Shown piece by piece: positions 22,437 through 53,715 of a stretch of DNA of 64,000 bases; within the stretch, counting starts at the first letter, position 1; each line of letters opens with the position of its first letter. The position numbers and the translations under genes were made by a program. The notes beneath the pieces were generated by a model. That model did not search any database. It was not told the origin of the DNA and saw nothing but the letters and a program-made list of their open reading frames with translations. Source of the stretch: an uncultured bacterium (GTDB lineage Bacteria > Patescibacteriota > Patescibacteriia > Magasanikbacterales > GWA2-37-8); NCBI GenBank assembly GCA_937903605.1, contig CALCZC010000007.1, positions 124,459 through 188,458 of the forward strand. Reading direction: 5' to 3'.

Positions 22437-22671
22437 CAACGCTAAGCGTTGTAATCGGGACGCTCAGCGTCCCACGTTTTCTTATTTATCAAAATTATTA
22501 TTCAAGACAGACTTCAAACAACTGTCTTGAGCAGTTTATAAATTTAACTTATTAATTTAAAATTCAAAAGTCAAAAATTAAAATTACAATTTAAAATTCA
22601 AAATAACAGAAAATTTTTATTGTTGAATTGAAATTTTGCATTTTACATTTTGACTTTTAACTTAATTACTT

Positions 22672-24887: not shown

Positions 24888-25356
24888 GTTTCGCTCAAAG
24901 CTATAAGCCGAATTTCGTCTACCCGTTTTTAAATTAAAAACGAGGAGATGGTCATTTATCTTGTCGGTCACATCACTGCGCCGATCTTTGCGAGCTAACT
25001 TTCTGAATTCCTGACTAAAAAGTCGGAAAACATTGCTCTTGCGCCAGGCAGGGTTTGGCACGTTTTGGCATTGCTGCCAATCGAGTATGATAGCCCATAT
25101 ATAAGACCTTCATACACTTTTCACCTTTGGCGAGGAAAAATCCTCGTTAGTATAGTCTCTGTGCCACTTTCCCTTTTACATTGTTACCAATGCAACGGCG
25201 GGTATTACCCGCTACCCCTTACCTTTCAGACAAACGAGACCTCTAAAAACCAAGAAATTCTTAATTTTTAGCCTGTCTATAATTGCTTGCCGATAGAGGC
25301 GTTCGGACTTTCCTCTCGGGTCGTATTCCGACCCAAGCGACCATCCGCTTTGAACC
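24888..25356 (-). ncRNA. rnpB: RNase P RNA (bacterial type A-like)
   Basis: Minus strand contains the P4 5' strand GAGGAAAGUCCGAAC, then GGUAAUACCCGCC, AAGGUGAAA, ACCCUGCCUGGCGCAAG (E. coli has ACUCCACCCGGAGCAAG), and the P4 3' strand ACGAAAUUCGGCUUAUAG. A P1 pairing guucaaagc/gcuuugagc closes the molecule. The region is about 50% GC in an AT-rich context and has no protein ORF. Confidence 0.75.
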
Positions 25357-35654: not shown

Positions 35655-35694
35655 AATAAATAAAAAAACAGACTCGACAACCGAGCCTGTTTTT

Positions 35695-36630
35695 TTATTT
35701 CAAAAATTCGTCTATTTTCTTTTCTGCCTGTTTCTCATTTTCTATCCAAACTATTTTTTCGTCTTTTTTGAACCACGTCATCTGTCGTTTGGCATAATGC
35801 CGAGTATCCATTTGAAGCCATTCTATCGCTTCCTCCAAAGTCATCTTACCCTCAATATAATCACGCATTTGTCTATAACCGATACCACTCATACTGGGCA
35901 ACTCCCAAGAATATTTTTGCGCTAACCTTTTAGCTTCTTGGATTAAACCGGCTTCAATCATTTTTTCACAACGCTTGTTTATTCTTTCGTATAAATTTTC
36001 TTTATCAACTTTTATCCCCAGCTGTAAAACATTAAAAAGAGACTTGCCTTTCTTTTGTTGTTTCAAAAACGATTCTCCGGTACTTAGCACCACTTCAAGC
36101 GCTCGAATAACCCGGCGCGGATTTTGTATGTCTATTTTTTCATAAGTTTCCGGATCAATTTCTTTGAGCATTTTGACCCTTTCCTCCAGACTTTTACTTT
36201 CTAATTCTCTGCGCAAAACCAAATCCGGTTCAACTCTCGGGATTTCCAGATTATCTACAATCGCTTTGATATAAAGACCGGTTCCACCGACCAAAAAAGG
36301 AATTTTTCCTTTTTTGATAATTTCTTTGATTGTTTTTTGAGCTTGATCTTTATAATCGCTGAGTGTAAAATTTTCATCCGGACTTATCATATCCAACAAA
36401 TAATGTTTAACCCCGTCAATAATATATTCATCCGTACTTGTCACTTGTAACTTGTCACTTGTAACTTTCAATGGCTTTGCCGTTGCAATATCCATTTCTT
36501 TATAAATTTGTCGAGAATCGGCATTGACTATTTCACCGTTAAATTTTTTGGCTAATACAATAGCCAAATCAGTTTTACCACTGGCGGTCGGACCGCAAAC
36601 AACGATTAATTTTGGAAGTTTATTTTTCAT
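35695..36630 (-). CDS. miaA: tRNA dimethylallyltransferase, with a small in-frame tandem insertion
   Basis: P-loop VVCGPTASGKTDLAIVLAKKFNGEIVNADSRQIY... The tandem repeat gtcacttgtaacttgtcacttgtaactt (36438-36465) encodes KVTSDKLQVTSTDE. Confidence 0.85.
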   Translation of the reverse strand: MKNKLPKLIVVCGPTASGKTDLAIVLAKKFNGEIVNADSRQIYKEMDIATAKPLKVTSDKLQVTSTDEYIIDGVKHYLLDMISPDENFTLSDYKDQAQKTIKEIIKKGKIPFLVGGTGLYIKAIVDNLEIPRVEPDLVLRRELESKSLEERVKMLKEIDPETYEKIDIQNPRRVIRALEVVLSTGESFLKQQKKGKSLFNVLQLGIKVDKENLYERINKRCEKMIEAGLIQEAKRLAQKYSWELPSMSGIGYRQMRDYIEGKMTLEEAIEWLQMDTRHYAKRQMTWFKKDEKIVWIENEKQAEKKIDEFLK

Positions 36631-36697
36631 AATGATTACATTATACCAATTATATTTTTTTCGTCAAAAAACCGACCCTGTAGAAGGACCGGTTTTG

Positions 36698-37090
36698 TTA
36701 TTCTTTGTAAATACTGCTGAGAAAAATCGCTTCGGCATTGGTTGGGTCTTTTTCTTTGAGCATTTCCCATGCTTGCCGGCGATAATCTTCACAATGGCGG
36801 ATAATGAGCGACAGATTATCTCTGGTAGGAAAATCCATCAATAGGCGTTTGGCCGCTTTTTTACGCATTTCTTTGGGAGAATAACGCAAGATATGACGGA
36901 GCGAAATCTCATCACAATCTTCTCGTGATAAAATTTCTTCCGCCACTCTTCTAAGCTTGAAAATCAACTCATCGGATAAAGCGATCAGTTCATCTATAGA
37001 AAGATCGTTTATCGCGAGATCTCTTATTCGACTTTCAAAAATAGCAAACTTTTTCTTTCCTTTAGTAGCTTTTCTGATGATACTACCCAT
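36698..37090 (-). CDS. Hypothetical helical protein (130 aa)
   Basis: Intact ORF with a downstream hairpin terminator (ccggtccttctacagggtcgg then T-run on the minus strand). It shows a possible weak similarity (IRHCEDYRRQAWEML vs IRSQFYRRGMQNFL) to the 43988 protein. Confidence 0.45.
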   Translation of the reverse strand: MGSIIRKATKGKKKFAIFESRIRDLAINDLSIDELIALSDELIFKLRRVAEEILSREDCDEISLRHILRYSPKEMRKKAAKRLLMDFPTRDNLSLIIRHCEDYRRQAWEMLKEKDPTNAEAIFLSSIYKE

Positions 37091-37221
37091 GTTTTTTCTC
37101 CTTATTGTTTAATGTACTATCAAAACAGTAGCATAAAAAAACACTTTGGTCAACGACGCATCCTTGATTAAAAAGCGTCAAAAGAATATACTAAATTTAT
37201 AATTAATTTATCAAATAACTT

Positions 37222-37857
37222 ATGAGAAAAACATCTTTCTTCGTTTTACTTTTATCCGCATTTTTTATCGCCGGGTGTTTTAGACTAACAGTTGAAAAAC
37301 CCTATCCGCTACCGGGGGTTATAGAACAACAATATTATGAAACCGCGGATTTGAAAATAATCCTTTTGGAACCCTTTACAATAAAAGACGAGAATGGGAC
37401 CGTAACTCTTTCTCATACGGTAGAAACTTTTCTTCATACTGATTTTTGCGATTTCAAGGGCGATTCTCTGCCAACTACTACTTTTCACGACCTTACTATC
37501 AAATTTTCTTTTACTACTCTATCGCTTGATAGAGCTCTGACAAAATTTGGCGGAGAATATCTAAAAGAGTTTGTAAATACCGACGGCACTATAAAAGAAG
37601 AAACAGGATTTTTGGAAAAAACAAAAATCGGAGACCGCGAGGGATATAAACTGACACAAGGAGTTGAAGGGTGTGGCCACGACCAATATTATTTTTCAAC
37701 TGAAAACGGTGTTTTGATAGTTCAAAAAAACTTTGTTCCCGAACTAACCGACCTTAATCCGCAAAAAGAAAAATTTTCTTCTATCCCCGGGGTTATCTTG
37801 CCCGACGAGGCTAATGAATTGTTTGAAAAAACAGTGAGATTTACCGGGGTGAAATAA
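37222..37857 (+). CDS. Hypothetical lipoprotein
   Basis: Signal peptide with lipobox LSAFFIAGC. 211 aa. Confidence 0.6.
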   Translation: MRKTSFFVLLLSAFFIAGCFRLTVEKPYPLPGVIEQQYYETADLKIILLEPFTIKDENGTVTLSHTVETFLHTDFCDFKGDSLPTTTFHDLTIKFSFTTLSLDRALTKFGGEYLKEFVNTDGTIKEETGFLEKTKIGDREGYKLTQGVEGCGHDQYYFSTENGVLIVQKNFVPELTDLNPQKEKFSSIPGVILPDEANELFEKTVRFTGVK

Positions 37858-37882
37858 AAAAGGCCCTTTTCAGGGCCAAAAT
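37855..37882. terminator. Bidirectional terminator
   Basis: aaaaaggcccttttcagggccaaaatc. Confidence 0.7.
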
Positions 37883-38745
37883 CAATATTTATTATAGAAC
37901 TCTTTTAGCTTTGGATGGTATTCTGTTCCACCATTGTATTGAGTTCCACATTTTTGAATATTACTGGGCGACAGGGCCAAACATTCTTCGCTTTTTTTGT
38001 CTTTTTCAAGCCAATAAGCGATAAAAAGTTTAACACTGTTTTTAGGAGACAATATAACATCCCCTTCGCTCAGGCGTAAATTCATCCTGGCTGTAAAACC
38101 CGGATTGCCTTTTCCCATCAGAACATGAAAGTAGGAAAAGGAGTATGCTTTATACTTTTTTTCCCAACGATTTAAAGCATACACACCGAGCTCGCTTTCG
38201 GCCATGGCGTAGGCATAAGCAGATCTTTTAACGTCCTCTTTTGAGACGGTTTTCATAAATCCACTAAACCTTTTGCCATATTTGGGAGTTTTCTTCATTT
38301 CTTCTATGGCTTCATCAGTCTCAGCAAGAAATTTTTCTTTACTAGTAATCCTCTTACTTTTTTCTATCGGAATTGCCAATAAAAAACCCGGGTGTATGAC
38401 AGTGCCTGGGATATTGAATCCAAAAACACCTTGGTACTCCCTATAGTTCAGGTACTCAAACTTTGGGCCACAAGATTTTTTTATCTTGTCGACAATCGTT
38501 GTCAGATTGTCATTGTTCTGAACACGATAGAAAAAAATATCGTGTTTTTTCTCTTTTTTCAGAGAAAATTTTCCATTGCAGTCATGATATTCAAAGATAT
38601 CAATTTCCTTGGCTAATTCTTCATTCTGAATTTCCTCTTCAGCAGCCACCTCTTTTTCTCTTTTTTCTTTCACAACCTTCTGAATCGCAATAACTACCAA
38701 AACGATAGTTACAATGACGACTATTGCTTCAAAGCTTTTTCTCAT
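37882..38745 (-). CDS. Hypothetical N-terminally membrane-anchored protein (287 aa)
   Basis: TM AIVVIVTIVLVVIAI, strong SD (gggaggcgtatcATG) and a canonical promoter at 38792-38820. Confidence 0.6.
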   Translation of the reverse strand: MRKSFEAIVVIVTIVLVVIAIQKVVKEKREKEVAAEEEIQNEELAKEIDIFEYHDCNGKFSLKKEKKHDIFFYRVQNNDNLTTIVDKIKKSCGPKFEYLNYREYQGVFGFNIPGTVIHPGFLLAIPIEKSKRITSKEKFLAETDEAIEEMKKTPKYGKRFSGFMKTVSKEDVKRSAYAYAMAESELGVYALNRWEKKYKAYSFSYFHVLMGKGNPGFTARMNLRLSEGDVILSPKNSVKLFIAYWLEKDKKSEECLALSPSNIQKCGTQYNGGTEYHPKLKEFYNKY

Positions 38746-38791
38746 GATACGCCTCCCTAAGCGTTATGTTATTAATGAACTAAAACGGTAT

Positions 38792-38820
38792 ATTATAACA
38801 TATTTTAACGATTTTGTCAA
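38792..38820 (-). promoter_or_regulatory. Consensus sigma70 promoter cassette (TTGACAAAATCGTTAAAATATGTTATAAT)
   Basis: Nearly identical to the cassette at 39891-39919 and similar to 53604-53632. Confidence 0.65.
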
Positions 38821-38894
38821 TACCCTAATTTGGCTAAAATAAGCAAAAATAAAAAATCCCCGTCCAGGCTTTTTCAAGCTTGAACGGGGGTGTA

Positions 38895-39839
38895 TTAAAA
38901 GAGCGTTGGTAGTGCGTCTACGGCTGGGGTAAACCCCTTTGGCACTGACGGCACATACCGCACTTGGGTTTTCCTCTGTCGGAACCCCTCCTCCAAAGAC
39001 ACCTTGTTTTTCTTTGACAGTTTTACCGGACCATCAAAGTAGTCTTTGGCAGCCTGGACATCCTCTTCTTCAGTAGCCTTCTTCCAACTGTCATTCTCAC
39101 TTAAAAGATATGACAGATAAGAATTAAAGGTTGTTTCAGAAGTCGGGAAAAGTAGTCCCAGATAATTGACCGAACTAGATTGATCATATCTTATGACGGT
39201 ATAAATCTCTTCACTGGTCAGTCCTCTGGAGGGATTTTTCAAACCCACTTTTCCAGCCATTAGTGTGTAGTCCTTATCATCGGTTTTTATCCAAACCGCT
39301 TTTAAACCCCACACCGGCAGTCTGGAAACTTTTCCCTCTGCCACAACAACAAGGGTCATATACAGATCTTCTCCGGATGGAGATGCCCAATTCGGAATCT
39401 TTTCCGGTATGTTTTGGGTCTCGGTATATTCCCGGAGCCACATACCATGAAGCAAAGCCGTGTCTTTATATATCAAGACATCGTCTTTGTAAAACTCCGA
39501 TCTTCCTTGACCGGGGAAATTCACGAGTCGTTCACCAAAAATTTCCTTTTCGGTTACCGTCTCCGTGACTGAGCATTTTTCTTCATCAAAAGACATGGTG
39601 TGTCTCTCAAATCCGATTTTCTGCCCATCTACCCCGTTGATGATCTTCGTATAAACAGCCGATTGAGTGTCGACTTTTTTTACGAAGCCATCCTTGTCAG
39701 GAAGCTTGGTGACGATGTCACAGGTTTCCTGGACCACAACCACTTCTTCCTCAGCACCGTCGCTGAAAATGAAGTAAAGGGAAACAAGAATCAGCGCTAT
39801 CGCAACTACGATAAGCGCGCTTTTGGAATGCTTTTTCAT
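38895..39839 (-). CDS. Hypothetical N-terminally membrane-anchored protein (about 314 aa)
   Basis: The start is set at MKKHSK (ATG 39839), which is preceded by SD taggagggcaatcATG. The ORF-track start at 39884 would sit at or before the predicted transcription start. Confidence 0.55.
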   Translation of the reverse strand: MKKHSKSALIVVAIALILVSLYFIFSDGAEEEVVVVQETCDIVTKLPDKDGFVKKVDTQSAVYTKIINGVDGQKIGFERHTMSFDEEKCSVTETVTEKEIFGERLVNFPGQGRSEFYKDDVLIYKDTALLHGMWLREYTETQNIPEKIPNWASPSGEDLYMTLVVVAEGKVSRLPVWGLKAVWIKTDDKDYTLMAGKVGLKNPSRGLTSEEIYTVIRYDQSSSVNYLGLLFPTSETTFNSYLSYLLSENDSWKKATEEEDVQAAKDYFDGPVKLSKKNKVSLEEGFRQRKTQVRYVPSVPKGFTPAVDALPTLF

Positions 39840-39890
39840 GATTGCCCTCCTATAGGCAAAGTTAATAAATTTCCAAGGAACCAACGAAGC

Positions 39891-39919
39891 ATTATATCAT
39901 ATTTTAATGATTTTGTCAA
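39891..39919 (-). promoter_or_regulatory. Consensus sigma70 promoter cassette (TTGACAAAATCATTAAAATATGATATAAT)
   Basis: Minus strand reads ttgacaaaatcattaaaatatgatataat. Confidence 0.65.
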
Positions 39920-40062
39920 CCCCTAAAATATCTTTTTGGCCAATATTAGCTAAAATATAATGTTTTTATCAAAATTTACTCTAATTTTAGGTAAAATATA
40001 ATTTGGATAAAAGTTGGCTAATATTAAATAAAAAACCGCGGACTGAGCCGCGGATTAACTTT

Positions 40063-40425
40063 TTAGCCATGGTGTTTTTCTATTACCTCCTCCAGGGCAT
40101 AGAAATTTTTATGCTTGGAAATAAAATCTTTGACTTTTTCGTCAAATTCTTTTTCCCCGCATTTATCAACTACAACTATCTCGTTTTTTTCATATTCGGA
40201 AAGAATCTTTTCTGCCATTTCCAAGGGTATGGTCTCCCCGCTTTTTAATTTAGGAAGCCCAAGCTGGTTCACGGCAAAAACCGGTTCAAAATTTTCTTTG
40301 ACATTTGAAAGATGAAAACGACCTTCCAAAACTTCAAAGAATTTTTTTCTTCCGGCTTGAAACCTATCTTCTTTCCAAAAACATTCGGTTCCGACCTCAA
40401 AAGTGATAAAAATTACTTTTGTCAT
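40063..40425 (-). CDS. Small cytoplasmic hypothetical protein, paralog A of a three-gene array
   Basis: MTKVIFITFEVGTECFWKEDRFQAGRKKFFEVLEGRF... Own promoter (40471-40499), SD gggggtgacaaATG and a ccgcgg-type hairpin terminator. Confidence 0.55.
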   Translation of the reverse strand: MTKVIFITFEVGTECFWKEDRFQAGRKKFFEVLEGRFHLSNVKENFEPVFAVNQLGLPKLKSGETIPLEMAEKILSEYEKNEIVVVDKCGEKEFDEKVKDFISKHKNFYALEEVIEKHHG

Positions 40426-40470
40426 TTGTCACCCCCTATGAAAAAATTTTTATCAAAAGAACAGACTACT

Positions 40471-40499
40471 AATTTACTCCTTCACAATATTTTTGTCAA
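40471..40499 (-). promoter_or_regulatory. Consensus-like promoter (TTGACA-17-TAAATT) for paralog A
   Basis: Minus strand reads ttgacaaaaatattgtgaaggagtaaatt. Confidence 0.5.
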
Positions 40500-40527
40500 A
40501 AACAAAGCCCCGACAAAATCGCGGGGC

Positions 40528-40917
40528 TTACAGCTCTTCACCTTCCATTTTCCCCTTAAAAATAGATTTCAACAGAAGTGTGGTTCTATTTTCAAAGTAG
40601 AAAATTTCTATTGGGTGATCATCCTCTCTCATGATGTCCGCCATAAAAAGAATTTTCTGGTTTATTTCCAGGGATTCATGAGCTTGGACAACTACACCAA
40701 CAATTTCCGGATTCCTATCTCGGAAATAATCTCCAAGAACCTTGGAAGGCGGAATGTCTGGAGGAAGATCGATGTGTCTGATAACAATTTCAATATCCTC
40801 CTTCACTCCAAACCTGGCTTTTATCCTTTCCAAAAAATACTTGATAAACTCGCGATATCGCGAACTATACCAAGTATTTGTCGGATCGGAAAAGGTAATC
40901 AGAATTAGCCTTCTCAT
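40528..40917 (-). CDS. Small cytoplasmic hypothetical protein, paralog B
   Basis: MRRLILITFSDPTNTWYSSRYREFIKYFLERIKARF... aligns with paralog A across the first ~40 residues. Own promoter, SD aaaggaggataagATG and a hairpin terminator gccccgacaaaatcgcggggc. Confidence 0.55.
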   Translation of the reverse strand: MRRLILITFSDPTNTWYSSRYREFIKYFLERIKARFGVKEDIEIVIRHIDLPPDIPPSKVLGDYFRDRNPEIVGVVVQAHESLEINQKILFMADIMREDDHPIEIFYFENRTTLLLKSIFKGKMEGEEL

Positions 40918-40967
40918 CTTATCCTCCTTTTATTTTTATTATTAATGTACTAATTAAATTACATCAT

Positions 40968-40996
40968 AATATAGCACAAAAAGCCAATTTTGTCAA
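40968..40996 (-). promoter_or_regulatory. Consensus-like promoter (TTGACA-17-TATATT) for paralog B
   Basis: Minus strand reads ttgacaaaattggctttttgtgctatatt. Confidence 0.5.
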
Positions 40997-41097
40997 TCGG
41001 TCTTCGTCCGCCAGATAGCGGACTACGCCCGACAAGTCCTCTAAATAAAAAACCGCGGATTTTAACCGCGGAAGTAAAATCTATTTTGAAATAAACT

Positions 41098-41652
41098 TTA
41101 CATAAACTTTTTTGGCGGACCAATTATCTCTGACGCGCTTTCGCAAATTTTCTGAAACCCTATCTTTGCTTTTGTAATTTCTTTCTCATGTTTAGGAGAA
41201 TTGATCTTTTCTTCTTTTTCAGGAAAAATAACTTCTTCCCCTTCAAAATAACTTTTCCTGATCCCTGTAACTTTTACAAAACCTTTTTCGGTTTTATAAA
41301 GCATGGTGGCGTTTTCAGGAAACCGACTTACCTGTTTCCATATTTCTTCATCAATTTCCTTTTTACCACAAGCCATGATGAAAAAATCATCTGGCTCTTC
41401 TTTTTTGATGTTTTCCTCCAAAAGGGATTCTAAATGAAGATTCGGGTTTTTTATCCTTGCTTCGTCACTTGGAAATAAAGAGCCGATTGTCAGAATCTTT
41501 CTTTCTACATTATGATATTTCATAATACCATCATCACCAAGATTACAAATAAAATTGAACGATGTGCTTTTGACTACAACTTCATAAAATCCTTCGTCTT
41601 CAATGCTTTTCCCTTCAAAATACTCTCTAAAAAAAACAACGATTGCTTTCAT
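41098..41652 (-). CDS. Cytoplasmic hypothetical protein, paralog C (184 aa, longer C-terminal tail)
   Basis: MKAIVVFFREYFEGKSIEDEGFYEVVVK... has an N-terminal M-[KR]-x-[IL]-[IV]-x-[IF]-[TF] strand like A and B. SD aaaaggagaaggaaaATG and terminator ccgcggattttaaccgcgg. Confidence 0.5.
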   Translation of the reverse strand: MKAIVVFFREYFEGKSIEDEGFYEVVVKSTSFNFICNLGDDGIMKYHNVERKILTIGSLFPSDEARIKNPNLHLESLLEENIKKEEPDDFFIMACGKKEIDEEIWKQVSRFPENATMLYKTEKGFVKVTGIRKSYFEGEEVIFPEKEEKINSPKHEKEITKAKIGFQKICESASEIIGPPKKFM

Positions 41653-41786
41653 TTTCCTTCTCCTTTTTATATAAATTGATAAAGATCTACCTTTAAACTA
41701 ACATAAACAATCAAAAAAGTCAATTACCAAAACCCCGCCAAAAGCAGGGTTTTAATCTTTTAAATTTCTTGAATCTCTTAAATCTA

Positions 41787-43160
41787 TTAAATTATTTCTC
41801 CCTTGAGTATCCACTTCTCCGCAAAATTTATTTTCACTTTTACCAACTTCCCAATCATTTTTTTATTTCCCAAAAATTGCACCATTTTCATTTCGTTTGA
41901 ATTTCCTGTACAAATCTCCCTCTCCACCCCATCCTCCTCTCGGGCAGAGGAGGGAGACTGACAATCATCCACCAATACTTCTACAGTTTGTCCTAAATAT
42001 TTTTGATTTTTACGCAAAACTATTTCTTCCATCAAATCCTGCAATATACGCCAACGACGTTTTTTTTCTTCCATTAAAACATCGTCTTTGTAAATTTTCG
42101 CCGCTACCGTCCCACTGCGCTGACTGTACATAGCAAGATACGCAATATCAAAATCACATTGTTTATACAAATCAACCGTTTGTTCAAATTGTTTTTTAGT
42201 TTCCGAGCAAAAACCAACAATAATATCCGTACCAATGGCAATCTCGGGTTTTTGCGCGCGAATTTTTTTGATTAATTTTATAAATTGTTCGCGCGTATAT
42301 TTGCGATTCATTTTCTTGAGTATTTCATTATCCCCCGCTTGCACCGGTAAATGAATATAATTGACCATTTTGGGCAAACTCAACGCTTTAACTTGATAAT
42401 CATCAAAATGTTGAGGGTCGGGTGCGGTATAAAATACACGAAAATCGCCCGGCAATTTATTTATTTCCCAAAGTAAGGCGGCAAAATCGTTTTTTTGAAT
42501 TGCTGGATAAAAAAGATTTTTCTTATTATAATTTTCCGGATCTGGCGCGCGATAATTATTGACTACTTGCCCAAGTAAGGTGATTTCTTTGGCGCCTTTT
42601 TTCACCGCTTTTTTTATTTCTTGCAAAACATCTTTCACTGGTCTGTTTTTTTCTCTACCCCGAGCATAAGGCACTACGCAATATGAACAAAAATTATTGC
42701 AACCGATTTGAATAGTGACAAAAGCTTTATAATCATGTTCACGCTTAGGATCTATATTCCAATATTGTCCAACATCTTCAAATTTCAGTTTAAACCAATC
42801 AGGTCGAAGTTCTCGCAACCATATCGATAACTTTGGAAGATCAATAATCGGAAAAAATAGATCCGCACTGGGAATTTTTTTTCGCAATCGTCCATCCGTA
42901 TCTCGTCCAGGCATGCAACCGGTCACAGCAAAAATCAAATTTGGTTTTTGTTTTTTTAATTTTAAAATTTTTCTGTTTATTCCGCTGGTTCTGTCTTCGG
43001 CCATTTGACGCACACTGCAGGTGTTTACCAGCACCAAATCCGCCTTTTCCAATACCGGCGTTTCTTTCATACCAAGAGACACTAAAAGCGCCCCGGCGCG
43101 CTCTGAGTCGTTTTTATTCATCTGACAGCCAAAAGTGATAAGGTGATAGTATTTAGGCAT
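41787..43160 (-). CDS. Radical-SAM methylthiotransferase (MiaB/RimO family) with a GC-rich palindromic insertion in the C-terminal TRAM region
   Basis: MTTase N-domain ...HLITFGCQMNKNDSERAGALL...VNTCSVRQMAEDR, and the radical SAM motif CNNFCSYCVVP. The palindrome ctccctc...gagggag (41897-41960) encodes ...SPSSAREEDGVEREICTGN... Confidence 0.8.
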   Translation of the reverse strand: MPKYYHLITFGCQMNKNDSERAGALLVSLGMKETPVLEKADLVLVNTCSVRQMAEDRTSGINRKILKLKKQKPNLIFAVTGCMPGRDTDGRLRKKIPSADLFFPIIDLPKLSIWLRELRPDWFKLKFEDVGQYWNIDPKREHDYKAFVTIQIGCNNFCSYCVVPYARGREKNRPVKDVLQEIKKAVKKGAKEITLLGQVVNNYRAPDPENYNKKNLFYPAIQKNDFAALLWEINKLPGDFRVFYTAPDPQHFDDYQVKALSLPKMVNYIHLPVQAGDNEILKKMNRKYTREQFIKLIKKIRAQKPEIAIGTDIIVGFCSETKKQFEQTVDLYKQCDFDIAYLAMYSQRSGTVAAKIYKDDVLMEEKKRRWRILQDLMEEIVLRKNQKYLGQTVEVLVDDCQSPSSAREEDGVEREICTGNSNEMKMVQFLGNKKMIGKLVKVKINFAEKWILKGEII

Positions 43161-43278
43161 AATCTAGGGCATTTTAACGGTTTTTTGACGTTTTGGCAAC
43201 TACCAATGAAATTGACATAACTTTCAATAAACACTAGGATATAATTAGTACATTATACATAAATAAAAGGAGAATGAA

Positions 43279-43506
43279 ATGAAAACACAAAAGCTGAACT
43301 TCTCTTTTAACAAGAAGGACAAGCAGGAGTCTTATTGCAAAAAATGCGGGATGCACACTACTCACCACACTGGACTGGCGTGGAATCATGATGCCGGTTT
43401 GTATCTGAGCGTTTTCCGCTGTGAAAAATGCAAAAAAACTCTTAAGAAAAAGATTGATTATGAATCTTTCAAAGAAGCAAAGACTCTCGCTGAGCTTCCT
43501 TCCTAA
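43279..43506 (+). CDS. Small zinc-ribbon protein (75 aa)
   Basis: Strong SD aaaaggagaatgaaATG. CKKCGMHTTHHTGLAWNHDAGLYLSVFRCEKCKKT. Terminator at 43504-43529. Confidence 0.6.
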   Translation: MKTQKLNFSFNKKDKQESYCKKCGMHTTHHTGLAWNHDAGLYLSVFRCEKCKKTLKKKIDYESFKEAKTLAELPS

Positions 43507-43545
43507 CCGCCCTCTGTGGGCGGTTTTTTAATATATTAGATATTC

Positions 43546-43574
43546 TTGACAATTTTATTTTTTTATTGTATAAT
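43546..43574 (+). promoter_or_regulatory. Consensus sigma70 promoter (TTGACA-17-TATAAT) for the second zinc-ribbon gene
   Basis: ttgacaattttatttttttattgtataat. Confidence 0.6.
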
Positions 43575-43617
43575 CTTCCTGGTCCTTTTTTATAAAATAT
43601 TTTTCCGGGAGGAAAAA

Positions 43618-43857
43618 ATGCACAACAACAATGAATATCGTTATCCACCGTCTGCTTCTTATCAAAGTCTCGGGGTAATAAAAAAATTCTGCAAAGGCCG
43701 TTGCCAGATGGAAACAGATCATTTTGAAGGTGTTTCTTGGAACAAGGGTGTTAGCGAAAGAAAGATAACCTGTGTTGTCTGTCAACGCATAGAAACAGAG
43801 AATATATCTTGGGAAAAGTGCATACAGTTGGCTCCCAGAGCCGCTTTGGACACATAA
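43618..43857 (+). CDS. Small zinc-ribbon protein (79 aa), a paralog of the 43279 gene
   Basis: SD gggaggaaaaaATG. CKGRCQMETDHFEGVSWNKGVSERKITCVVCQRIE has the same C..C-x-[ME]T-x-H-x-G-[LV]-[AS]-WN...C-x2-C pattern. The ORF-track start at 43546 lies inside the promoter, so the start is reset to 43618. Confidence 0.6.
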   Translation: MHNNNEYRYPPSASYQSLGVIKKFCKGRCQMETDHFEGVSWNKGVSERKITCVVCQRIETENISWEKCIQLAPRAALDT

Positions 43858-43917
43858 ACCAAGTTCTTTTTATTTTAGTCCGCCCTTTTTAGGGCGGATT
43901 TTTTAATTCCCCCAAAC

Positions 43918-43945
43918 CTTGACATTTGAAATAAAAGAAGTAAAA
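43918..43945 (+). promoter_or_regulatory. Consensus sigma70 promoter (TTGACA-16-TAAAAT)
   Basis: ttgacatttgaaataaaagaagtaaaat. Confidence 0.55.
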
Positions 43946-43987
43946 TTCATGTGTTCTTTAAAAACAACTTCCTTAATGGAGCCGTGA

Positions 43988-44434
43988 ATGCCGAAAGAAA
44001 AACAAACAAAGCTTTTCGATCAGGAAAAAGCTCGCCAAGAAAGAGAAAAAGAAACGCTTTTGTTGGAACTTTCCAAAAAGAATCCCGACCTAATGCTGTT
44101 AAAAAAAGCCAACACCTATCTCTTTGGTCTTTTATCTGAAACAGAAAAAGAAAAAATCTGGAAAATCATCAAAGATGATATTGAATGTTTGCTTCATCTT
44201 ATTCGCCCAGAGTCTAACCGTGGCGATGTTTTTCCGGAAAAAGCCTTTTGTTTCGATACGCTCAATGTTATTTTTACCAACGGAGACTCAAACATTGTTG
44301 AATTTTTTATCCGCTCGCAATTTTACCGGAGAGGCATGCAAAACTTCTTGCTTTCTCTGAAGAAAAACCCCCGTCTCATCACGGAAAAAATAGGTAAAAA
44401 GACCTATCAAAAATTTCTGAAAGAAATCAAATAA
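43988..44434 (+). CDS. Hypothetical helical protein (148 aa)
   Basis: An intact ORF lies between the promoter and the convergent terminator before thrS. Confidence 0.5.
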   Translation: MPKEKQTKLFDQEKARQEREKETLLLELSKKNPDLMLLKKANTYLFGLLSETEKEKIWKIIKDDIECLLHLIRPESNRGDVFPEKAFCFDTLNVIFTNGDSNIVEFFIRSQFYRRGMQNFLLSLKKNPRLITEKIGKKTYQKFLKEIK

Positions 44435-44483
44435 AGGAAGGTGCTTACAAAACCGCCCCGACTATATGTCGAGGCGTTTTTTA

Positions 44484-46319
44484 TTAAACTCTATCTTTTA
44501 TTTCTCCCAAAATCTTTTCAACAAATTTTTCTTTACTCATTTTTTCTTGTTTTTCCACTCCCCTTATTCTGATCATCCATTCTTCACCACTCAATTCTTT
44601 ATCACCTACCGCGACGATATAAGGTACTTTTTGTTTTACAGCTTTGCGAACTTTGTTACCAAGTGTTTCATCCGCTTCATCGCTTTCCACTCGTAAACCA
44701 AGATCAATCAACTCGGTTCTGATTTTTCTCGCGCCTTCTACATGTTTTTCACTCACCGGTACGAGCATAATTTGTGTCGGTGCCAACCAAACTGGAAAAG
44801 CTCCGGCATAATGTTCTATGAGCAAGCCGATAAATCTTTCAAACGAACCAAATAACGCGCGATGTAACATATAAGGACGTTCTTGTTCGCCTTTATTATT
44901 GACGAAATTCATATCAAAGCGTTCCGGAATATTAAAATCAAACTGCAAAGTAGAGCATTGCCATAAACGGCCCAAACAATCTTTAATTTTGAAATCCAAT
45001 TTCGGACCGTAAAAAGCGGCTTCACCAAGTTCTTCGGTAAAGTTTAATTTCTTTTCTTTGGCAACTTTACGCAAAACACTTTCCGTCAATTCCCAACCCT
45101 CGTCGCTACCAACATATTTTTCTTTATCATTTGGATCACGCAAAGATAAGAATACTTGTACATCATCAATGTTGAAACCAAACGATTTATAAATAAACAA
45201 AATAAAATCTATCACTCTTTTGAGCTCTTCTTCTACTTGTTCTTTGGAACAAATAATATGCGCATCATCTTGAGTAAAACCGCGCACGCGAGTCAAACCC
45301 GATAACTGACCTTTTTTCTCATGACGATAAACTGTGCCACATTCCGCCCAACGCAGAGGAAGTTCGCGATAAGAATATGGACGATTTTTGAAAATCTGCA
45401 CATGAAACGGACAGTTCATGGGTTTGAGCAAATAAGTTTCATGCTCTTTGGCTTCTTGATTGTTTTGACTTTCTTTGAGTGTTTGCCCGACCTCCAGTGG
45501 CGGATACATACTATCATTATAAAATCCCCAATGTCCGCTAGTTTCCCAAAGCGCTTTGTTACCAATGTGCGGAGTACGCACTAATTCATAACCTCCAAGC
45601 AAATGATGCTTGTACCAAAATTCTTCAATCACTCGCCAGACTATCGCGCCCTTGGGATGCCACAGGGGCAAACCCAAACCAACCATCTCATCAATATGAA
45701 ATAGATCCAACTCCTTGCCCAGTTTGCGATGATCGCGTTTTTCCGCTTCTTCCAATAAAAATAGATAATCATCCAACTCCTTTTGTTTGGCAAAACAAAC
45801 GCCATAAACTCTGGTCAACTGCGGATTTTCGCTTTTACCGCGCCAATAAGCACCAGCCAGTTTAGTTAACTTGAAAACACCGATATCTTTGGTGGATTCC
45901 AAATGAGGACCGCGACAAAGGTCTATAAAATTACCGGTTTGATAGATAGTGACTTTATCTATATTTCCGCCAATCTCGACCAATTCTTCATCATTAACTT
46001 TGGTCGTGCCTTTTGTTTTCAAATCATTTAACAGCTCTACTTTGTAATCTTGGCCCATTTGTGCAAACTGTTCCATAGCTTTGTCAATGGTCACCTCTTG
46101 ACGGGAAAATGGCAAATCTTGTTTTTGCAATTCTTTGGCTTTATACTCTATTTTTTGTAAATCATCTTCTGTTACCGGCACACCAAAATCAATATCATAA
46201 TAAAACCCGTTTTCAACAGTCGGACCTACACCAAATTTAGCTTTAGGATAAAGCTCGGCTACGGCTGCAGCCACCAAATGCGCACAACTATGACGCATAA
46301 TTGAAATATCTAATTTCAT
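44484..46319 (-). CDS. thrS: Threonyl-tRNA synthetase (no N-terminal TGS domain)
   Basis: It starts in the second additional domain (MRHSCAHLVAAAVAELYP), then has the class II catalytic core and a C-terminal anticodon-binding domain. 611 aa. Confidence 0.9.
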   Translation of the reverse strand: MKLDISIMRHSCAHLVAAAVAELYPKAKFGVGPTVENGFYYDIDFGVPVTEDDLQKIEYKAKELQKQDLPFSRQEVTIDKAMEQFAQMGQDYKVELLNDLKTKGTTKVNDEELVEIGGNIDKVTIYQTGNFIDLCRGPHLESTKDIGVFKLTKLAGAYWRGKSENPQLTRVYGVCFAKQKELDDYLFLLEEAEKRDHRKLGKELDLFHIDEMVGLGLPLWHPKGAIVWRVIEEFWYKHHLLGGYELVRTPHIGNKALWETSGHWGFYNDSMYPPLEVGQTLKESQNNQEAKEHETYLLKPMNCPFHVQIFKNRPYSYRELPLRWAECGTVYRHEKKGQLSGLTRVRGFTQDDAHIICSKEQVEEELKRVIDFILFIYKSFGFNIDDVQVFLSLRDPNDKEKYVGSDEGWELTESVLRKVAKEKKLNFTEELGEAAFYGPKLDFKIKDCLGRLWQCSTLQFDFNIPERFDMNFVNNKGEQERPYMLHRALFGSFERFIGLLIEHYAGAFPVWLAPTQIMLVPVSEKHVEGARKIRTELIDLGLRVESDEADETLGNKVRKAVKQKVPYIVAVGDKELSGEEWMIRIRGVEKQEKMSKEKFVEKILGEIKDRV

Positions 46320-46695
46320 ATGTGAATATTATTTAATTTATACTAATATACGAATTGTACTAATTATACGAATGGAATACGAATATATTCGTATTGAGTA
46401 TTAGTATAGCATTAGTATCATTCGTACCATTAGTATATTGGTATGTTTTAAAATAAAAAACCGATACCTCAAAAACAAAGATATCGGGGTCCTTAAAAAT
46501 TTAGGACGGTTCCACCCGTATTTTTCACTTTTTATAAATTGTCATTTCTCCAAAGAGTGGTACCATAACGTCAATGCGTCTGGGCTGGTTCTTTTGACTA
46601 GCAATCAAAATTATAACAATTCCCCAAAAAAAGTCAACCACAAAACAAAAAGTAATAAAAAAACCGCCTTGTTTAAGGGCGGCTATAAAAACATT

Positions 46696-47324
46696 TCAGA
46701 GAAGCTCTTCTTCGACAAATCCCCGAAGAACAGCGGCGGCGTTGTAGTGATGGTGTTTTTCGTAATCGGTCACAAAAGATTCAAAACAGCCTTTGAACCC
46801 CTTGAGATCCACACCGAACTTTTCCGCCAGCATTTTGAAATTACACAAAGTTCTCTTGGTGCTTTCGGAAGATCTGGTAACTTCTTCACGAAAACGTTCT
46901 GTATATTTGACCATCAATTCAAAAGCTTCCGGAGAACCCGGCTTGATTTCCAAGTTGCGTAAAAGACCAAGCAAGTCCTCAAGAGCAATCTCATCGCAGA
47001 AATTCTGTTGAACCAGGGCGTTTAAAACCGCCTTGTTGACCGAGAAATCGTCAAACTCTTTTTTGAAAAAAGCCGGAGAAGTTCATTGGCCTTGGACAGA
47101 TCGTTTTCCGGTTCCAGTAAAATAATACATTCCAGGGACCAGGAAAGAAACTCTTTTTCTTCTGCCGGAGTAAACCGGTAATGCTTGTCCAGATAAGCCT
47201 TTATGTTTTCTCTTTTAAAAAAAGGAAAGACATTGAGGCTCGGAAGAGAGTTCGGATCATGCTTTTCAAACAGTTGCCGCGCGCCAAAATAAAGCGCGAT
47301 TTGGGAAGTCATTCTTTGTTCCAT
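46696..47324 (-). pseudogene. Hypothetical gene split by a +1/-2 frameshift in the homopolymer cttttttcaaaaaag (about 47058-47070). The two track ORFs (47022-47324 and 46696-46974) are one reading frame if a single base is added or removed.
   Basis: The upstream ORF ends ...KANELLRLFSKKSLTISRSTRRF*. In the shifted frame it continues ...LFFKKEFDDFSVNKAVLNALVQQNFCDEIALEDLLGLLRNLEIKPG..., which is the downstream ORF. The plus-strand ORF 46438-46962 across it is spurious. Confidence 0.6.
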
Positions 47325-47395
47325 TTTTTCCTCCGAAAAAACGTTAATAAATCATCTAATATTTAAAGAACCTTATCTTTGAAAAAAGACATTTT

Positions 47396-47424
47396 ATTTT
47401 AGCCAAAAAAATACTTTTTGTCAA
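47396..47424 (-). promoter_or_regulatory. Consensus sigma70 promoter (TTGACA-17-TAAAAT) for the frameshifted gene
   Basis: Minus strand reads ttgacaaaaagtatttttttggctaaaat. Confidence 0.55.
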
Positions 47425-47604
47425 CACAAACCCCATGTTGATAATTTAACCACAAAAATTTCCCCATTTTAGCCAAAATATGCTATAATAATATAGTCTA
47501 ATTCCGATAGGATTTTTTTGGGAAAATTGTTTAGGTTATTTATTTTATTATTTACTAACTTATAAGCTCGTTGGCTTATTTACTTTAAAAATTTTTACTT
47601 TAAT

Positions 47605-48570
47605 ATGTATTCCCCTTCTTATCGCGAAGCTTTAAAAAATTCTTTTATTTTAATTTGGAAAAATAAATCTTTTTGGATTTTCGGTATTCTTGCCGCTCTT
47701 TTTGTCAGCCCTTTTGGCATGGGCGGTTTTTTTGGTCAAATAATTTTAACCGGTAGTGAAACTTTACCGTTGAGCTATTTTCCTTGGGGCGGTTTTTTCA
47801 AATTTTTAGCCAATAGCGATCCGACAAATTTTGTTTCTGCGGTTTGGTTGCTCGAAATTATTTTGGCGATCTTTATAATTGTAGTTTTTGTTTCTGTTTG
47901 CGCGCAAACTTCTTTGATTATCAACACTTGTGAATATTATAAAAAGAAAACACACTCCAAGCTGTCCGATACTTGGCACAAAAGTTACAAATATTTTTGG
48001 AAAATACTTGGTTTTGATTTAATCCGCAAAATAACCTTGGTTTTATTAATAGCTTTTAGCTCCGCCCTTTGGTTTATAGCAACTAACAACGATTTTTGGA
48101 CAAAATTATTTTTAATTTTATCTTTTATAATCGTTATTTTTTTAATGTTAGTGATTTCCGCTATAACTATTTATGCTTCCGGATACGCGGTTATTGATAA
48201 TGAAAATTTTTGGGCTAGCTTCAAAAAAGGCGCTCTACTGTTCAAAGATCATTTTTTGGTTTCTTTTGAAATAAGCTTGATAATGTTGGTGTTGGATTTG
48301 ATACTGGCTTCTTTTATTTCTACCGCGATTGTTTTGTCTTTTATTCCAGCAACTCTGTTATGGTTTTTGGCCGGATTGGCTAATAGCTTATTTTTATTAA
48401 ATTTGGCACTTGTTTTAAGCCTTTTGATTATAACTTTCCTGATAATTATTATCGGCGGTTTTTATAATGCTTTCAATACCGGGACTTGGATGTATTTATT
48501 CATGAAAATGCATCACAAAGGCATCTTTTCCCGAATTGGCCATCTTTTTATTAAACTTTTTCAAAAATAA
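47605..48570 (+). CDS. Polytopic integral membrane protein (~8 TM), hypothetical
   Basis: 321 aa, almost entirely hydrophobic. It ends 3 bp before the PilB-like gene. Confidence 0.6.
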   Translation: MYSPSYREALKNSFILIWKNKSFWIFGILAALFVSPFGMGGFFGQIILTGSETLPLSYFPWGGFFKFLANSDPTNFVSAVWLLEIILAIFIIVVFVSVCAQTSLIINTCEYYKKKTHSKLSDTWHKSYKYFWKILGFDLIRKITLVLLIAFSSALWFIATNNDFWTKLFLILSFIIVIFLMLVISAITIYASGYAVIDNENFWASFKKGALLFKDHFLVSFEISLIMLVLDLILASFISTAIVLSFIPATLLWFLAGLANSLFLLNLALVLSLLIITFLIIIIGGFYNAFNTGTWMYLFMKMHHKGIFSRIGHLFIKLFQK

Positions 48571-53603: not shown

Positions 53604-53632
53604 TTGACAAAATCGCTAAAACATGTTAAAGT
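53604..53632 (+). promoter_or_regulatory. Sigma70-like promoter (TTGACAAAATCGCTAAAACATGTTAAAGT), the same cassette as 38792 and 39891
   Basis: It is followed in the 5' UTR by a perfect palindrome ttcccctat-gaattata-tatagggaa (about 53640-53668) and the SD taggaga. Confidence 0.55.
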
Positions 53633-53715
53633 ATTCTGTTTTGTTCCCCTATGAATTATATATAGGGAACCGAACTTTTTTTGTACTTTAAAAACACAAC
53701 ATAGGAGAATGCACA

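What the first reader, a model, noticed from the sequence alone, without database searches (positions are those of the whole stretch)
36698..47424. Accessory island of singly transcribed small genes between miaA and thrS (carrying miaB), each with a textbook promoter, strong SD and hairpin terminator
Between miaA and thrS lie about a dozen short genes on both strands. Each has its own TTGACA-17-TATAAT-type promoter, an unusually strong SD (GGAGG or GGGGG, whereas housekeeping genes here have weak SDs) and its own hairpin terminator. They include a lipoprotein, two membrane-anchored proteins, three cytoplasmic paralogs, two zinc-ribbon paralogs, a frameshifted gene and two possibly related helical proteins at the island edges (36698-37090 and 43988-44434). 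None has a recognisable catalytic motif. Two promoter cassettes (38792 and 39891) are about 90% identical to each other and to the one driving the M16 peptidase at 53604, which suggests module duplication. Insulated one-gene transcription units of unknown small proteins are a hallmark of variable accessory regions such as defence or immunity or host-interaction cassettes.
Basis: partly seen in the sequence, partly recalled or inferred. Interest (0 to 1): 0.7.

Follow-up and report, generated by a model that had tools for sequence, protein, structure and literature searches.

The report
Variable small-gene cassette islet in CPR
In one genus of the tiny uncultured Magasanikbacteria, an otherwise conserved gene trio (thrS, miaB, miaA) has been pried apart by about a dozen self-contained one-gene expression cassettes, which encode genus-only small proteins and are swapped, duplicated and lost between close relatives; their function is mostly unknown.

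Summary
Window 36698-47424 holds 10 intact small genes and one frameshifted gene around miaB and thrS. Nearly all have a sigma-70-like promoter, a 35-70 nt leader, a strong Shine-Dalgarno (SD) site and a hairpin terminator. An SD is present on 11 of 12 island ORFs, against 2 of 40 other genes in the window and 7-10% of large ORFs in relatives.

Comparison with 80 related genomes shows that miaB and miaA normally abut (median gap 33 nt). Only the window's genus carries the inserts, and their content differs between species. Indel breakpoints fall exactly at terminator tails. Synonymous divergence varies from 0 to saturation between neighbouring genes, which indicates cassette-wise recombination. 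dN/dS of 0.05-0.28 shows these are real, constrained genes.

The accessory and variable nature is supported. A defence role is not. The paralogy claims are only partly right. A divergent Thr T-box leader precedes thrS.

The parts
35695..36667 (-). Backbone gene miaA with a near-leaderless promoter (TTGACG-16-TATAAT at 36640-36667; the -10 ends 9 nt before ATG). No SD.
   Evidence: Pfam IPPT annotation on the same gene in L001. Promoter; it is conserved in L007, L009 and L010.
36666..37153 (-). Cassette H1: promoter TTGACC-17-TACTGT (37125-37153), leader motif GTACATTAA (37117), SD AGGAG, 130-aa helical protein (36698-37090), terminator (36666-36693).
   Evidence: An ortholog exists only in L007/L096 (65% identity) and L090 (100% over 61 aa). 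L008 and L010 carry an unrelated 84-aa gene in this slot.
37164..37881 (+). Lipoprotein g37222 (211 aa, lipobox FIAGC; no SD; promoter TTGATT-17-TATACT). Predicted PsbP/Mog1/Tsi3-type fold. Bidirectional terminator 37858-37881 shared with g37882.
37882..38820 (-). Cassette g37882: 12/12 promoter with TG (38792-38820), leader motif GTTCATTAA, SD GGAGG, 287-aa signal-anchored protein. The C-terminal domain is tentatively lysozyme-like (invariant E183-S184).
38851..39919 (-). Cassette g38895: 12/12 promoter (39891-39919, 27/29 identical to 38792-38820), SD AGGAGG, 314-aa membrane-anchored protein of unknown fold, terminator (38851-38890).
   Evidence: 82% ortholog in L088 in the same order. Absent, together with g37882, from L007, L008, L009, L010 and L091. 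The indel is bounded by TTTTTTATTT terminator tails.
40030..40499 (-). Cassette B (g40063): promoter TTGACA-17-TAAATT, SD GGGGG, 120-aa cytoplasmic protein, terminator CCGCGG...CCGCGG-T6.
   Evidence: Orthologs in L007 (96%), L009 (71%) and L088. Weak paralogy to A.
40498..40996 (-). Cassette A (g40528): promoter TTGACA-17-TATATT with TG, leader motif GTACATTAA, SD AGGAGG, 129-aa cytoplasmic protein, terminator.
   Evidence: Present in every genus member whose miaB-miaA interval is held. Six proteins in the word-indexed search and 3 representatives of 1.84e9 in the exhaustive HMMER search.
41047..41723 (-). Cassette C (g41098): weak promoter TTGACT-17-TAGTTT, SD AGGAG, 184-aa cytoplasmic protein, terminator CCGCGG...CCGCGG-T6. 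It starts directly after the miaB terminator.
   Evidence: 99% identical with dS = 0 against L007. 33% in L010. Two tandem paralogs in L091. Absent from L008 and L009.
41729..43199 (-). Backbone gene miaB with a near-leaderless promoter (TTGCCA-17-TAAAAT; the -10 ends 10 nt before ATG) and its own terminator.
   Evidence: Pfam UPF0004, Radical_SAM and TRAM on the same gene..
43212..43529 (+). Cassette Zn1: promoter, leader GTACATTAT, SD AGGAG, 75-aa four-Cys zinc ribbon, terminator.
   Evidence: Paralog of Zn2. Orthologs in L007, L009, L011 and L091. Absent from L008.
43546..43904 (+). Cassette Zn2: 12/12 promoter, SD GGAGG, 79-aa zinc ribbon (start ATG 43618), terminator.
   Evidence: The gene call in L001 is 79 aa. 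Identity is 58% to L007 and 82% to L009. The L010 copy is frameshifted.
43919..44482 (+). Cassette H2 (g43988): promoter TTGACA-16-TAAAAT, leader motif GTTCTTTAA, SD GGAG, 148-aa helical protein. Bidirectional terminator shared with thrS.
   Evidence: Present in every genus member whose thrS-miaB interval is held, but identity is non-phylogenetic: 35-38% to L007 (where thrS is 96-97%) and 65% to L009.
44484..46319 (-). Backbone gene thrS.
   Evidence: Pfam tRNA_SAD, tRNA-synt_2b and HGTP_anticodon.
46455..46637 (-). thrS leader, a divergent Thr T-box-like riboswitch: promoter 46610-46637; ACC triplets in AAAAGAACCAGCCCAG (46580-46595) and in GGUACCAC; T-box AAAUACGGGUGGAACCGUCC (46504-46523); terminator 46455-46487.
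   Evidence: Rfam T-box scores only 11 bits.
46657..47424 (-). Cassette FS: promoter TTGACA-17-TAAAAT (47396-47424), leader motif GTTCTTTAA, SD GGAGG, and an ORF of about 208 aa broken by a +2 frameshift in a T run (47065-47074) into 100-aa and 92-aa pieces. Terminator 46657-46683.

Best explanation
This is a genus-specific flexible islet. The ancestral thrS-miaB-miaA backbone of Magasanikbacteria has accreted self-contained expression cassettes in the thrS-miaB gap, the miaB-miaA gap and just upstream of the thrS leader.

Each cassette consists of:
- a sigma-70-type promoter, often with an extended -10;
- an AU-rich, unstructured leader that usually carries GT[A/T]C[A/T]TTAA;
- a strong Shine-Dalgarno site;
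- one small ORF;
- an intrinsic terminator.

This gives the genes SD-dependent, individually controlled expression in a genome whose ordinary genes are SD-less or near-leaderless.

Cassettes turn over as units in four ways:
- insertion or deletion at terminator tails;
- tandem duplication followed by divergence (A/B, Zn1/Zn2, C/C' in L091, and the g37882/g38895 promoters);
- decay by frameshift;
- allele replacement by homologous recombination among genus members.

The products are constrained, genus-restricted proteins. Three are exposed at the envelope: a PsbP/Tsi3-fold lipoprotein, a probably lysozyme-like signal-anchored protein, and a second anchored protein. The rest are small cytoplasmic proteins (alpha/beta, zinc ribbon or helical).

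SHOWN: the architecture, the variability, the restriction to one genus, purifying selection and mosaic divergence.

INFERRED: independent transcription, the SD-dependent translation regime, and the role. I consider the most likely role to be strain-specific cell-envelope or host-interface functions, possibly a wall hydrolase kept in check by the lipoprotein, accompanied by small cytoplasmic accessory or regulatory proteins.
For: - Synteny. The miaB-miaA gap is 150 nt or less in 58 of 70 non-genus loci (median 33 nt), against 1.7-5.2 kb in the window's genus.
- Restriction to the genus. Profile HMMs of all 10 families find no member in 75 non-genus loci.
- Content differs in W, L007, L008, L009, L010, L011, L088 and L091.
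- Breakpoints. The g38895+g37882 unit is bounded by TTTTTTATTT terminator tails, and C starts directly after the miaB terminator.
- Signals. Promoter, leader and SD are conserved in orthologs. SD is present on 11/12 island ORFs against 2/40 others, with a 7-10% background. Six of the 8 occurrences of the leader motif in the window lie in SD-gene leaders (P about 2e-11).
- Selection and recombination. dN/dS is 0.05-0.28. Between the window and L007, dS ranges from 0.00 (C) through 0.15 (thrS) to saturated (H2). H1 is 100% identical on a contig where the adjacent lipoprotein is 56% identical.
- Composition. GC3 is 0.389 in island genes against 0.296 elsewhere.
- Orphan status.
- Folds.
- The interval is seen in at least 6 independent assemblies.
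Against: - There are no transcription data, so promoters and terminators are consensus matches only.
- SD is not exclusive to the islet: nusG and the M16 peptidase also have one.
- The lipoprotein lacks the cassette signals and has distant homologs elsewhere. It may be an older resident rather than cargo.
- The lipoprotein, A and H2 are present in every genus member that covers their interval, so part of the interval behaves as genus-core.
- The PsbP/Mog1 fold is a generic scaffold.
- The lipoprotein occurs without g37882 in most relatives, and distant homologs of the two are not neighbours.
- Seven of the ten proteins have no functional lead at all.
Confidence: 0.8

Rival explanations
1. Antagonism and immunity module. 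g37882 is a surface-anchored muramidase used against host or competitor cell walls. The Tsi3-fold lipoprotein g37222 is its cognate, and elsewhere orphan, immunity protein. The small cytoplasmic proteins are further orphan immunity or anti-toxin proteins kept for protection against relatives.
For: - The two genes are convergent and share a terminator, in the same order in L088.
- Retention of immunity genes without the effector, and mosaic allele exchange, are typical of such systems (from general knowledge).
Against: - There is no sequence homology to any effector or immunity family.
- The fold is shared with many non-immunity proteins (PsbP, Mog1, LpqN, DcrB).
- Foldseek does not support the lysozyme call.
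- The two genes are separately transcribed and are not co-inherited: the lipoprotein is in every genus member that covers its interval, while g37882 is in only two lineages.
- Distant homologs of the lipoprotein are not next to hydrolases.
- No toxin domain is seen anywhere in the interval.
Confidence: 0.2
2. Known-type anti-phage defence island or remnant of a mobile element or prophage (true morons).
For: - The promoter-ORF-terminator units inserted between conserved genes look exactly like phage morons.
- GC3 is modestly shifted.
- Content is variable.
Against: - No PADLOC hit for 10 proteins, and only chance-level PHROG hits.
- No relatives in IMG/VR for four families or in INPHARED for g37882.
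- No integrase, tRNA or att-like repeats.
- Promoters, the leader motif and terminator style are native to this genome and shared with the M16 peptidase gene.
Confidence: 0.07
3. Ordinary genus-specific core genes. The interval is simply a set of lineage-specific housekeeping or structural small proteins, and the apparent variability reflects normal divergence and incomplete MAGs.
For: - The lipoprotein, A and H2 are present in every genus locus that covers their interval.
- Purifying selection.
- Conserved order and conserved regulatory regions.
Against: - Presence and absence are seen inside contiguous contigs with precise breakpoints, so assembly gaps are not the cause.
- dS varies from 0 to saturation between adjacent genes in the same genome pair.
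- Slots are filled by unrelated genes, for example H1 against H1b, and four novel ORFs in L091.
- Two decayed copies exist.
Confidence: 0.12

Closest known systems
Flexible (hypervariable) genomic islands or islets at fixed chromosomal positions, as described for marine and other free-living bacteria (general knowledge, not a tool result)
   Same: The position is fixed between conserved flanks. Gene content differs between close relatives, and alleles are replaced by recombination. The content is enriched in envelope-exposed proteins, and composition is modestly deviant.
   Different: The islet is very small (about 7 kb of inserts) and lacks tRNA and integrase. It is made of single-gene transcription units of genus-restricted orphans, and it is marked by a translation signal (strong SD) that the rest of the genome hardly uses.
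Phage 'morons': one ORF with its own promoter and terminator, inserted between conserved phage genes (general knowledge)
   Same: The anatomy is identical (promoter, ORF, factor-independent terminator). Presence or absence occurs between otherwise collinear relatives, with breakpoints at unit borders.
   Different: The units are chromosomal and sit between housekeeping genes of a CPR bacterium. There are no phage genes nearby and no homologs in viral collections.
Tse3-Tsi3 type muramidase effector and immunity pair of type VI secretion (PDB 4luq)
   Different: There is no sequence similarity. No secretion system is linked. The genes are separately transcribed and not co-inherited. The fold is also that of PsbP, Mog1, DcrB and LpqN.
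T-box riboswitch (Rfam RF00230), for the thrS leader only
   Same: ACC (Thr) triplets in a short stem I. The T-box sequence GGGUGGAACCG. An antiterminator with a 7-nt UGGAACC bulge and a covarying upper helix. An overlapping terminator. The position upstream of an aminoacyl-tRNA synthetase gene is conserved in 33 of 44 relatives.
   Different: Stem I is strongly reduced in this genus. Rfam scores it at only 11 bits, and no gathering-level hit was found in 7 relatives' loci.

Membership tests
Flexible genomic island / variable accessory islet | Same chromosomal position between conserved flanking genes in related genomes | tested here: met
   thrS-miaB-miaA flanks in W, L007-L011 and L091.
Flexible genomic island / variable accessory islet | Gene content differs between close relatives and is absent from more distant ones | tested here: met
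   Eight different contents. miaB and miaA abut in 58 of 70 distant loci. Family HMMs are absent outside the genus.
Flexible genomic island / variable accessory islet | Signs of horizontal exchange (mosaic divergence, deviant composition) | tested here: met
   dS ranges from 0.00 to saturated within one genome pair. GC3 is 0.389 against 0.296, p<0.001.
Flexible genomic island / variable accessory islet | Mobility hallmarks (integrase, tRNA target, flanking att repeats). Typical of classical islands, not required for islets. | tested here: not met
   There is no tRNA in the interval, no integrase-like Pfam hit, and no long direct repeats.
Phage moron | Single ORF flanked by its own promoter and intrinsic terminator | tested here: met
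   Consensus scans and manual reading. Transcription itself was not tested.
Phage moron | Resides in a phage or prophage genome | tested here: not met
   The neighbours are miaA, miaB and thrS. No viral relatives were found.
Known anti-phage defence systems (PADLOC-DB) | At least one protein matches a defence-system HMM | tested here: not met
   0 families for all 10 proteins at E<=0.1.
Muramidase effector and immunity pair (Tse3-Tsi3-like) | Effector has a lysozyme or muramidase catalytic domain | tested here: inconclusive
Muramidase effector and immunity pair (Tse3-Tsi3-like) | Adjacent periplasmic or lipoprotein immunity protein of Tsi3 type | tested here: inconclusive
Muramidase effector and immunity pair (Tse3-Tsi3-like) | Effector and immunity genes co-occur, and a dedicated secretion system is present | tested here: not met
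   The lipoprotein is present without g37882 in L007-L010 and L091. No T6SS genes are in the window. Only a T2SSE/pilus-type ATPase is nearby.
Integron cassette array | intI integrase, attC sites at cassette ends, mostly promoterless cassettes | tested here: not met
   Each unit has its own promoter. The 3' hairpins are GC stems followed by a T run, which are intrinsic terminators. No integrase was found.
T-box riboswitch (thrS leader) | T-box sequence with an antiterminator bulge UGGN, and a competing terminator | tested here: met
   CGGG[UGGAACC]GUCC...GGACCCCG with a covarying upper helix and an overlapping terminator, in about 30 relatives.
T-box riboswitch (thrS leader) | Specifier codon matching the regulated synthetase, in a stem I internal loop | tested here: inconclusive
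   ACC triplets are present on both sides of a short stem I. Which one is read, and whether tRNA binds, were not tested.
T-box riboswitch (thrS leader) | Match to the Rfam RF00230 covariance model at gathering score | tested here: not met
   11 bits against a gathering score of 93. No hit in 7 relatives' loci.

The most novel reading that the evidence does not exclude
The cassettes mark a distinct, co-regulated expression class in an SD-poor CPR genome. The class is defined by strong SD sites plus a shared leader element (GT[A/T]C[A/T]TTAA), and it also covers the M16 peptidase. On this reading the miaB locus acts as a recombination-driven 'nursery' where genus-specific small proteins are born, duplicated and exchanged. 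These would include a surface muramidase with a Tsi3-like lipoprotein guard, used in the episymbiotic attack on, or attachment to, host cells.
Probability: 0.2. Interest if true: 0.75.

Novelty: new variant of a known kind. Interest (0 to 1): 0.5.

Why it matters
CPR/Patescibacteria genomes are small, and roughly half of their genes have no known function. How these organisms diversify the genes used at the host interface is an open question.

This locus offers a compact and well-delimited example of gene-by-gene turnover in such a genome:
- a conserved backbone;
- precise cassette borders;
- clear evidence of recombination and purifying selection;
- a translation signal (strong SD plus a leader motif) that sets the accessory genes apart from SD-less or leaderless housekeeping genes.

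If the SD-led class turns out to be a regulon, or the hydrolase and lipoprotein a working pair, it would give testable handles on CPR surface biology. If not, it remains a tidy but ordinary flexible islet of orphan genes.

Tried and rejected
- **Family searches.** Pfam, PADLOC, PHROG and NCBIfam scans of all 10 proteins gave only chance-level hits.
- **Profile searches against PDB sequences** for seven families (g37882, A, H2, lipoprotein, g38895, FS, C) found nothing significant.
- **Viral origin.** Four IMG/VR scans and one tblastn against INPHARED found no relatives.
- **SD sequestration or a riboswitch-like structure in the cassette leaders.** Ten leaders were folded and z-scores ranged from -1.5 to +0.6, so there is no systematic structure.
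- **Paralogy of H1 with H2, of C with A or B, and of FS with H1 or H2.** hhalign probability was 2.5% or less.
- **LysM-like segment in g37882.** I suspected this from the sequence, but Pfam does not support it and the model is of low confidence there. I dropped it.
- **Conserved neighbourhood of the lipoprotein and a hydrolase in distant lineages.** The contexts of P0026, P0028, P0029, P0030 and L103-L108 show no linkage.
- **Integron-like attC sites or long repeats.** None were found. The recurring TTTTTTATTT tail is the general terminator tail of this genome.
- **Rfam hits in the interval** (Histone3 stem-loop at 37857, and others) are chance matches to terminator hairpins.
- **The AFDB fold library** was unavailable.

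Full report
**What is there**

The window comes from a Candidatus Magasanikbacteria (Patescibacteria/CPR) genome. miaB relatives at 82-92% identity carry that label or 'Patescibacteria', and the same interval is found with 100% identical proteins in at least six independent ENA and Logan assemblies.

Between miaA (35695-36630, -) and the far side of thrS lie the following genes:
- H1 (130 aa)
- a lipoprotein (211 aa, on the + strand)
- two signal-anchored proteins, g37882 (287 aa) and g38895 (314 aa)
- three small cytoplasmic proteins, B (120 aa), A (129 aa) and C (184 aa)
- miaB
- two zinc ribbons, Zn1 (75 aa) and Zn2 (79 aa)
- H2 (148 aa)
- thrS
- a gene split into 100-aa and 92-aa ORFs

**The signals are real and unusual for this genome**

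The consensus scan of 35500-48000 finds 47 promoter-like sites against 31.4 +/- 4.4 in shuffles, and 25 terminator-like sites against 10.8 +/- 3.9. Three promoters are perfect 12/12 matches and five are 11/12; one of the five drives miaA and another drives the thrS leader. Reading the intergenic DNA places a promoter, a 35-70 nt leader, a GGAG(G) or GGGGG site 5-7 nt before the ATG, and a GC hairpin with a T run around almost every small gene.

The sharpest contrast is in translation signals. Eleven of 12 island ORFs have an SD, against 2 of 40 other genes in the window (nusG and an M16 peptidase). Fisher p = 1.5e-8. Across 80 related loci only 7-10% of ORFs of 200 aa or more have an SD-like motif, against 4.4% by chance. 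miaA and miaB instead have a -10 box ending 9-10 nt before the ATG, so they are near-leaderless, and this is conserved in relatives.

The leaders are not structured. However, 6 of the 8 occurrences of GT[AT]C[AT]TTAA in the whole window, counting both strands, sit in sense orientation in leaders of SD-led genes, including the M16 peptidase (expected 0.05). Degenerate copies occur in the other leaders and in all orthologous leaders.

- The lipoprotein has no SD and only a 9/12 promoter.
- The C promoter is weak (8/12).
- The promoter and terminator at 46455-46637 belong to the thrS leader.

**Is the interval variable?**

Yes. I fetched 80 miaB loci from species-representative genomes. In 58 of 70 loci outside the window's genus, miaA starts within 150 nt of the miaB stop (median 33 nt). 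A few lineages have unrelated insertions there. Only the five genomes with 82-92% miaB identity, plus metagenomic relatives L088 and L091, carry the small genes. Profile HMMs of all ten families find nothing in the other 75 loci.

Content differs within the genus:

| Genome | Gene order |
|---|---|
| Window | miaB, C, A, B, g38895, g37882, lipoprotein, H1, miaA |
| L007 | as the window, but lacks g38895 and g37882 |
| L009 | A, B, lipoprotein only |
| L008, L010 | an unrelated 84-aa gene in the H1 slot |
| L091 | two tandem C paralogs and four further novel ORFs |

Zn1 and Zn2 are absent from L008, and one zinc-ribbon gene is frameshifted in L010.

The g38895+g37882 indel is bounded on both sides by the terminator tail TTTTTTATTT. 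The C cassette begins directly after the miaB terminator. Units are therefore gained or lost whole.

**Real genes, exchanged piecemeal**

dN/dS is 0.05-0.28 for every family tested, the same range as miaA, miaB and thrS. Synonymous divergence between the window and L007, however, varies widely by gene:

| Gene | dS (window vs L007) |
|---|---|
| C | 0.00 |
| thrS, lipoprotein, B | about 0.16 |
| miaA, miaB | 0.36-0.39 |
| Zn1 | 0.75 |
| A, Zn2 | about 1.0 |
| H1 | 2.1 |
| H2 | saturated |

H2 is 35-38% identical to the L007 copy but 65% to the more distant L009 copy. On contig L090, H1 is 100% identical to the window while the adjacent lipoprotein is 56% identical. This mosaic points to allele replacement by recombination rather than uniformly fast evolution. 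GC3 of island genes is modestly higher than that of other genes (0.389 against 0.296).

**Paralogy and decay**
- Zn1 and Zn2 are paralogs (hhalign 97%).
- A and B are probably distant paralogs (75%, E 2.5e-5, N-terminal 47 residues).
- C is unrelated to A or B by sequence, and H1 is unrelated to H2.
- The promoters of g37882 and g38895 are 27/29 identical, and the M16 promoter is 25/29 identical to the first.
- In L091 the two C paralogs share about 100 nt of near-identical upstream sequence.
- The split gene is a true +2 frameshift in a T run. It is T6 here against T4 in relatives, is also present in two independent assemblies, and the gene is intact in four relatives.

**What the proteins are**

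None of the ten hits Pfam, PADLOC, PHROGs or NCBIfam above chance. Family A has 6 relatives among 5.8 billion proteins and 3 representatives among 1.84 billion in an exhaustive HMMER search. g37882 has 4 relatives and the lipoprotein 19. There are no relatives in viral collections.

Two structures were predicted.

The two genes are convergent and share a terminator, which suggests a hydrolase and inhibitor relationship. Against this, the lipoprotein occurs without g37882 in most relatives, and distant homologs show no linkage.

**Interpretation**

The best-supported reading is a genus-specific flexible islet built from moron-like, individually expressed cassettes. These turn over by insertion or deletion at terminators, tandem duplication, decay and recombination, and they encode constrained orphan proteins, three of them at the envelope.

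A defence-system reading is not supported. An antagonism and immunity reading is possible but rests on fold similarity alone. An 'ordinary genus-core genes' reading fits the lipoprotein, A and H2, but not the indels, the slot replacements or the dS mosaic.

**Side finding**

The thrS leader (46455-46637, -) is a divergent threonine T-box. Its features are:
- the T-box sequence GGGUGGAACCG;
- an antiterminator CGGG[UGGAACC]GUCC...GGACCCCG with a covarying upper helix;
- an overlapping terminator;
- ACC triplets in a shortened stem I.

The GGGUGGAACCG motif is conserved upstream of thrS in 33 of 44 relatives, and the antiterminator and terminator were seen in the alignment of about 30 of those leaders. 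Rfam nevertheless scores the window's leader at 11 bits and finds nothing at gathering level in 7 relatives' loci.

Noticed in passing
window 46455-46637 (-), upstream of thrS: Divergent Thr T-box-like leader. It has a promoter at 46610-46637, ACC triplets in a very short stem I, the T-box AAAUACGGGUGGAACCGUCC, an antiterminator with a UGGAACC bulge and a covarying helix, and a terminator at 46455-46487. GGGTGGAACCG lies upstream of thrS in 33 of 44 related loci. Rfam RF00230 gives only 11 bits here and no gathering-level hit in 7 relatives' loci. A full-text search found no paper that links T-box riboswitches and the Candidate Phyla Radiation.
   Followed up: partly
window 37117(-), 38780(-), 40950(-), 43953(+), 47371(-), 53683(+): The leader motif GT[AT]C[AT]TTAA occurs 8 times in the window counting both strands. 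Six of these are in sense orientation in 5' leaders of SD-led genes (H1, g37882, A, H2, FS, M16 peptidase), 7-28 nt upstream of the SD. It is conserved in orthologous leaders of relatives. Its function is unknown; it could be a TSS region, a processing site or a regulator site.
   Followed up: partly
whole window; e.g. 35695-36667, 41787-43199, 11539-12075, 29918-31093: Most genes lack any SD. Several (miaA, miaB and others) have a -10 box ending 9-12 nt before the ATG, which implies leaderless or near-leaderless mRNAs. SD-like motifs precede only 7-10% of large ORFs in 80 Magasanikbacteria-related loci.
   Followed up: partly
window 38830, 40014, 47399, 47469, 53591 and 11 further sites: The octamer TTAGCCAA/TTGGCTAA occurs 16 times against 2.5 expected from shuffles. 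Several copies lie just upstream of, or inside, the promoters of g37882, g38895, FS and the M16 peptidase. It may be a regulator site or an UP-like element.
   Followed up: no
window 53604-54948 (+): The M16 peptidase gene shares the island-type expression signals: a promoter 25/29 identical to that of g37882, the leader motif GTACTTTAA, SD AGGAG, and a higher GC3 of 0.44.
   Followed up: partly
L091:2004-5385 (JGI 3300010352, 58-kb contig): A relative of the same genus has an expanded islet with seven cassettes between the lipoprotein and miaB. Two are tandem C-family paralogs with near-identical upstream cassettes, and four ORFs (146, 68, 131 and 70 aa) have no counterpart in the window.
   Followed up: partly
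window 46320-46454 (-), between the thrS leader terminator and the thrS ATG: An AT-rich stretch of about 135 nt contains short repeated words (TACGAAT, ATACTAAT, TTCGTAT). It is identical in L007 but replaced by unrelated sequence in L009 and L010. Its purpose is unknown.
   Followed up: no
window 24888-25356 (-); 12272-12345 (+); 22355-22437 (+): RNase P RNA (class A, 140.7 bits), tRNA-Ile(TAT) and tRNA-Leu(CAG) are present elsewhere in the window. There is no tRNA next to the islet.
   Followed up: no
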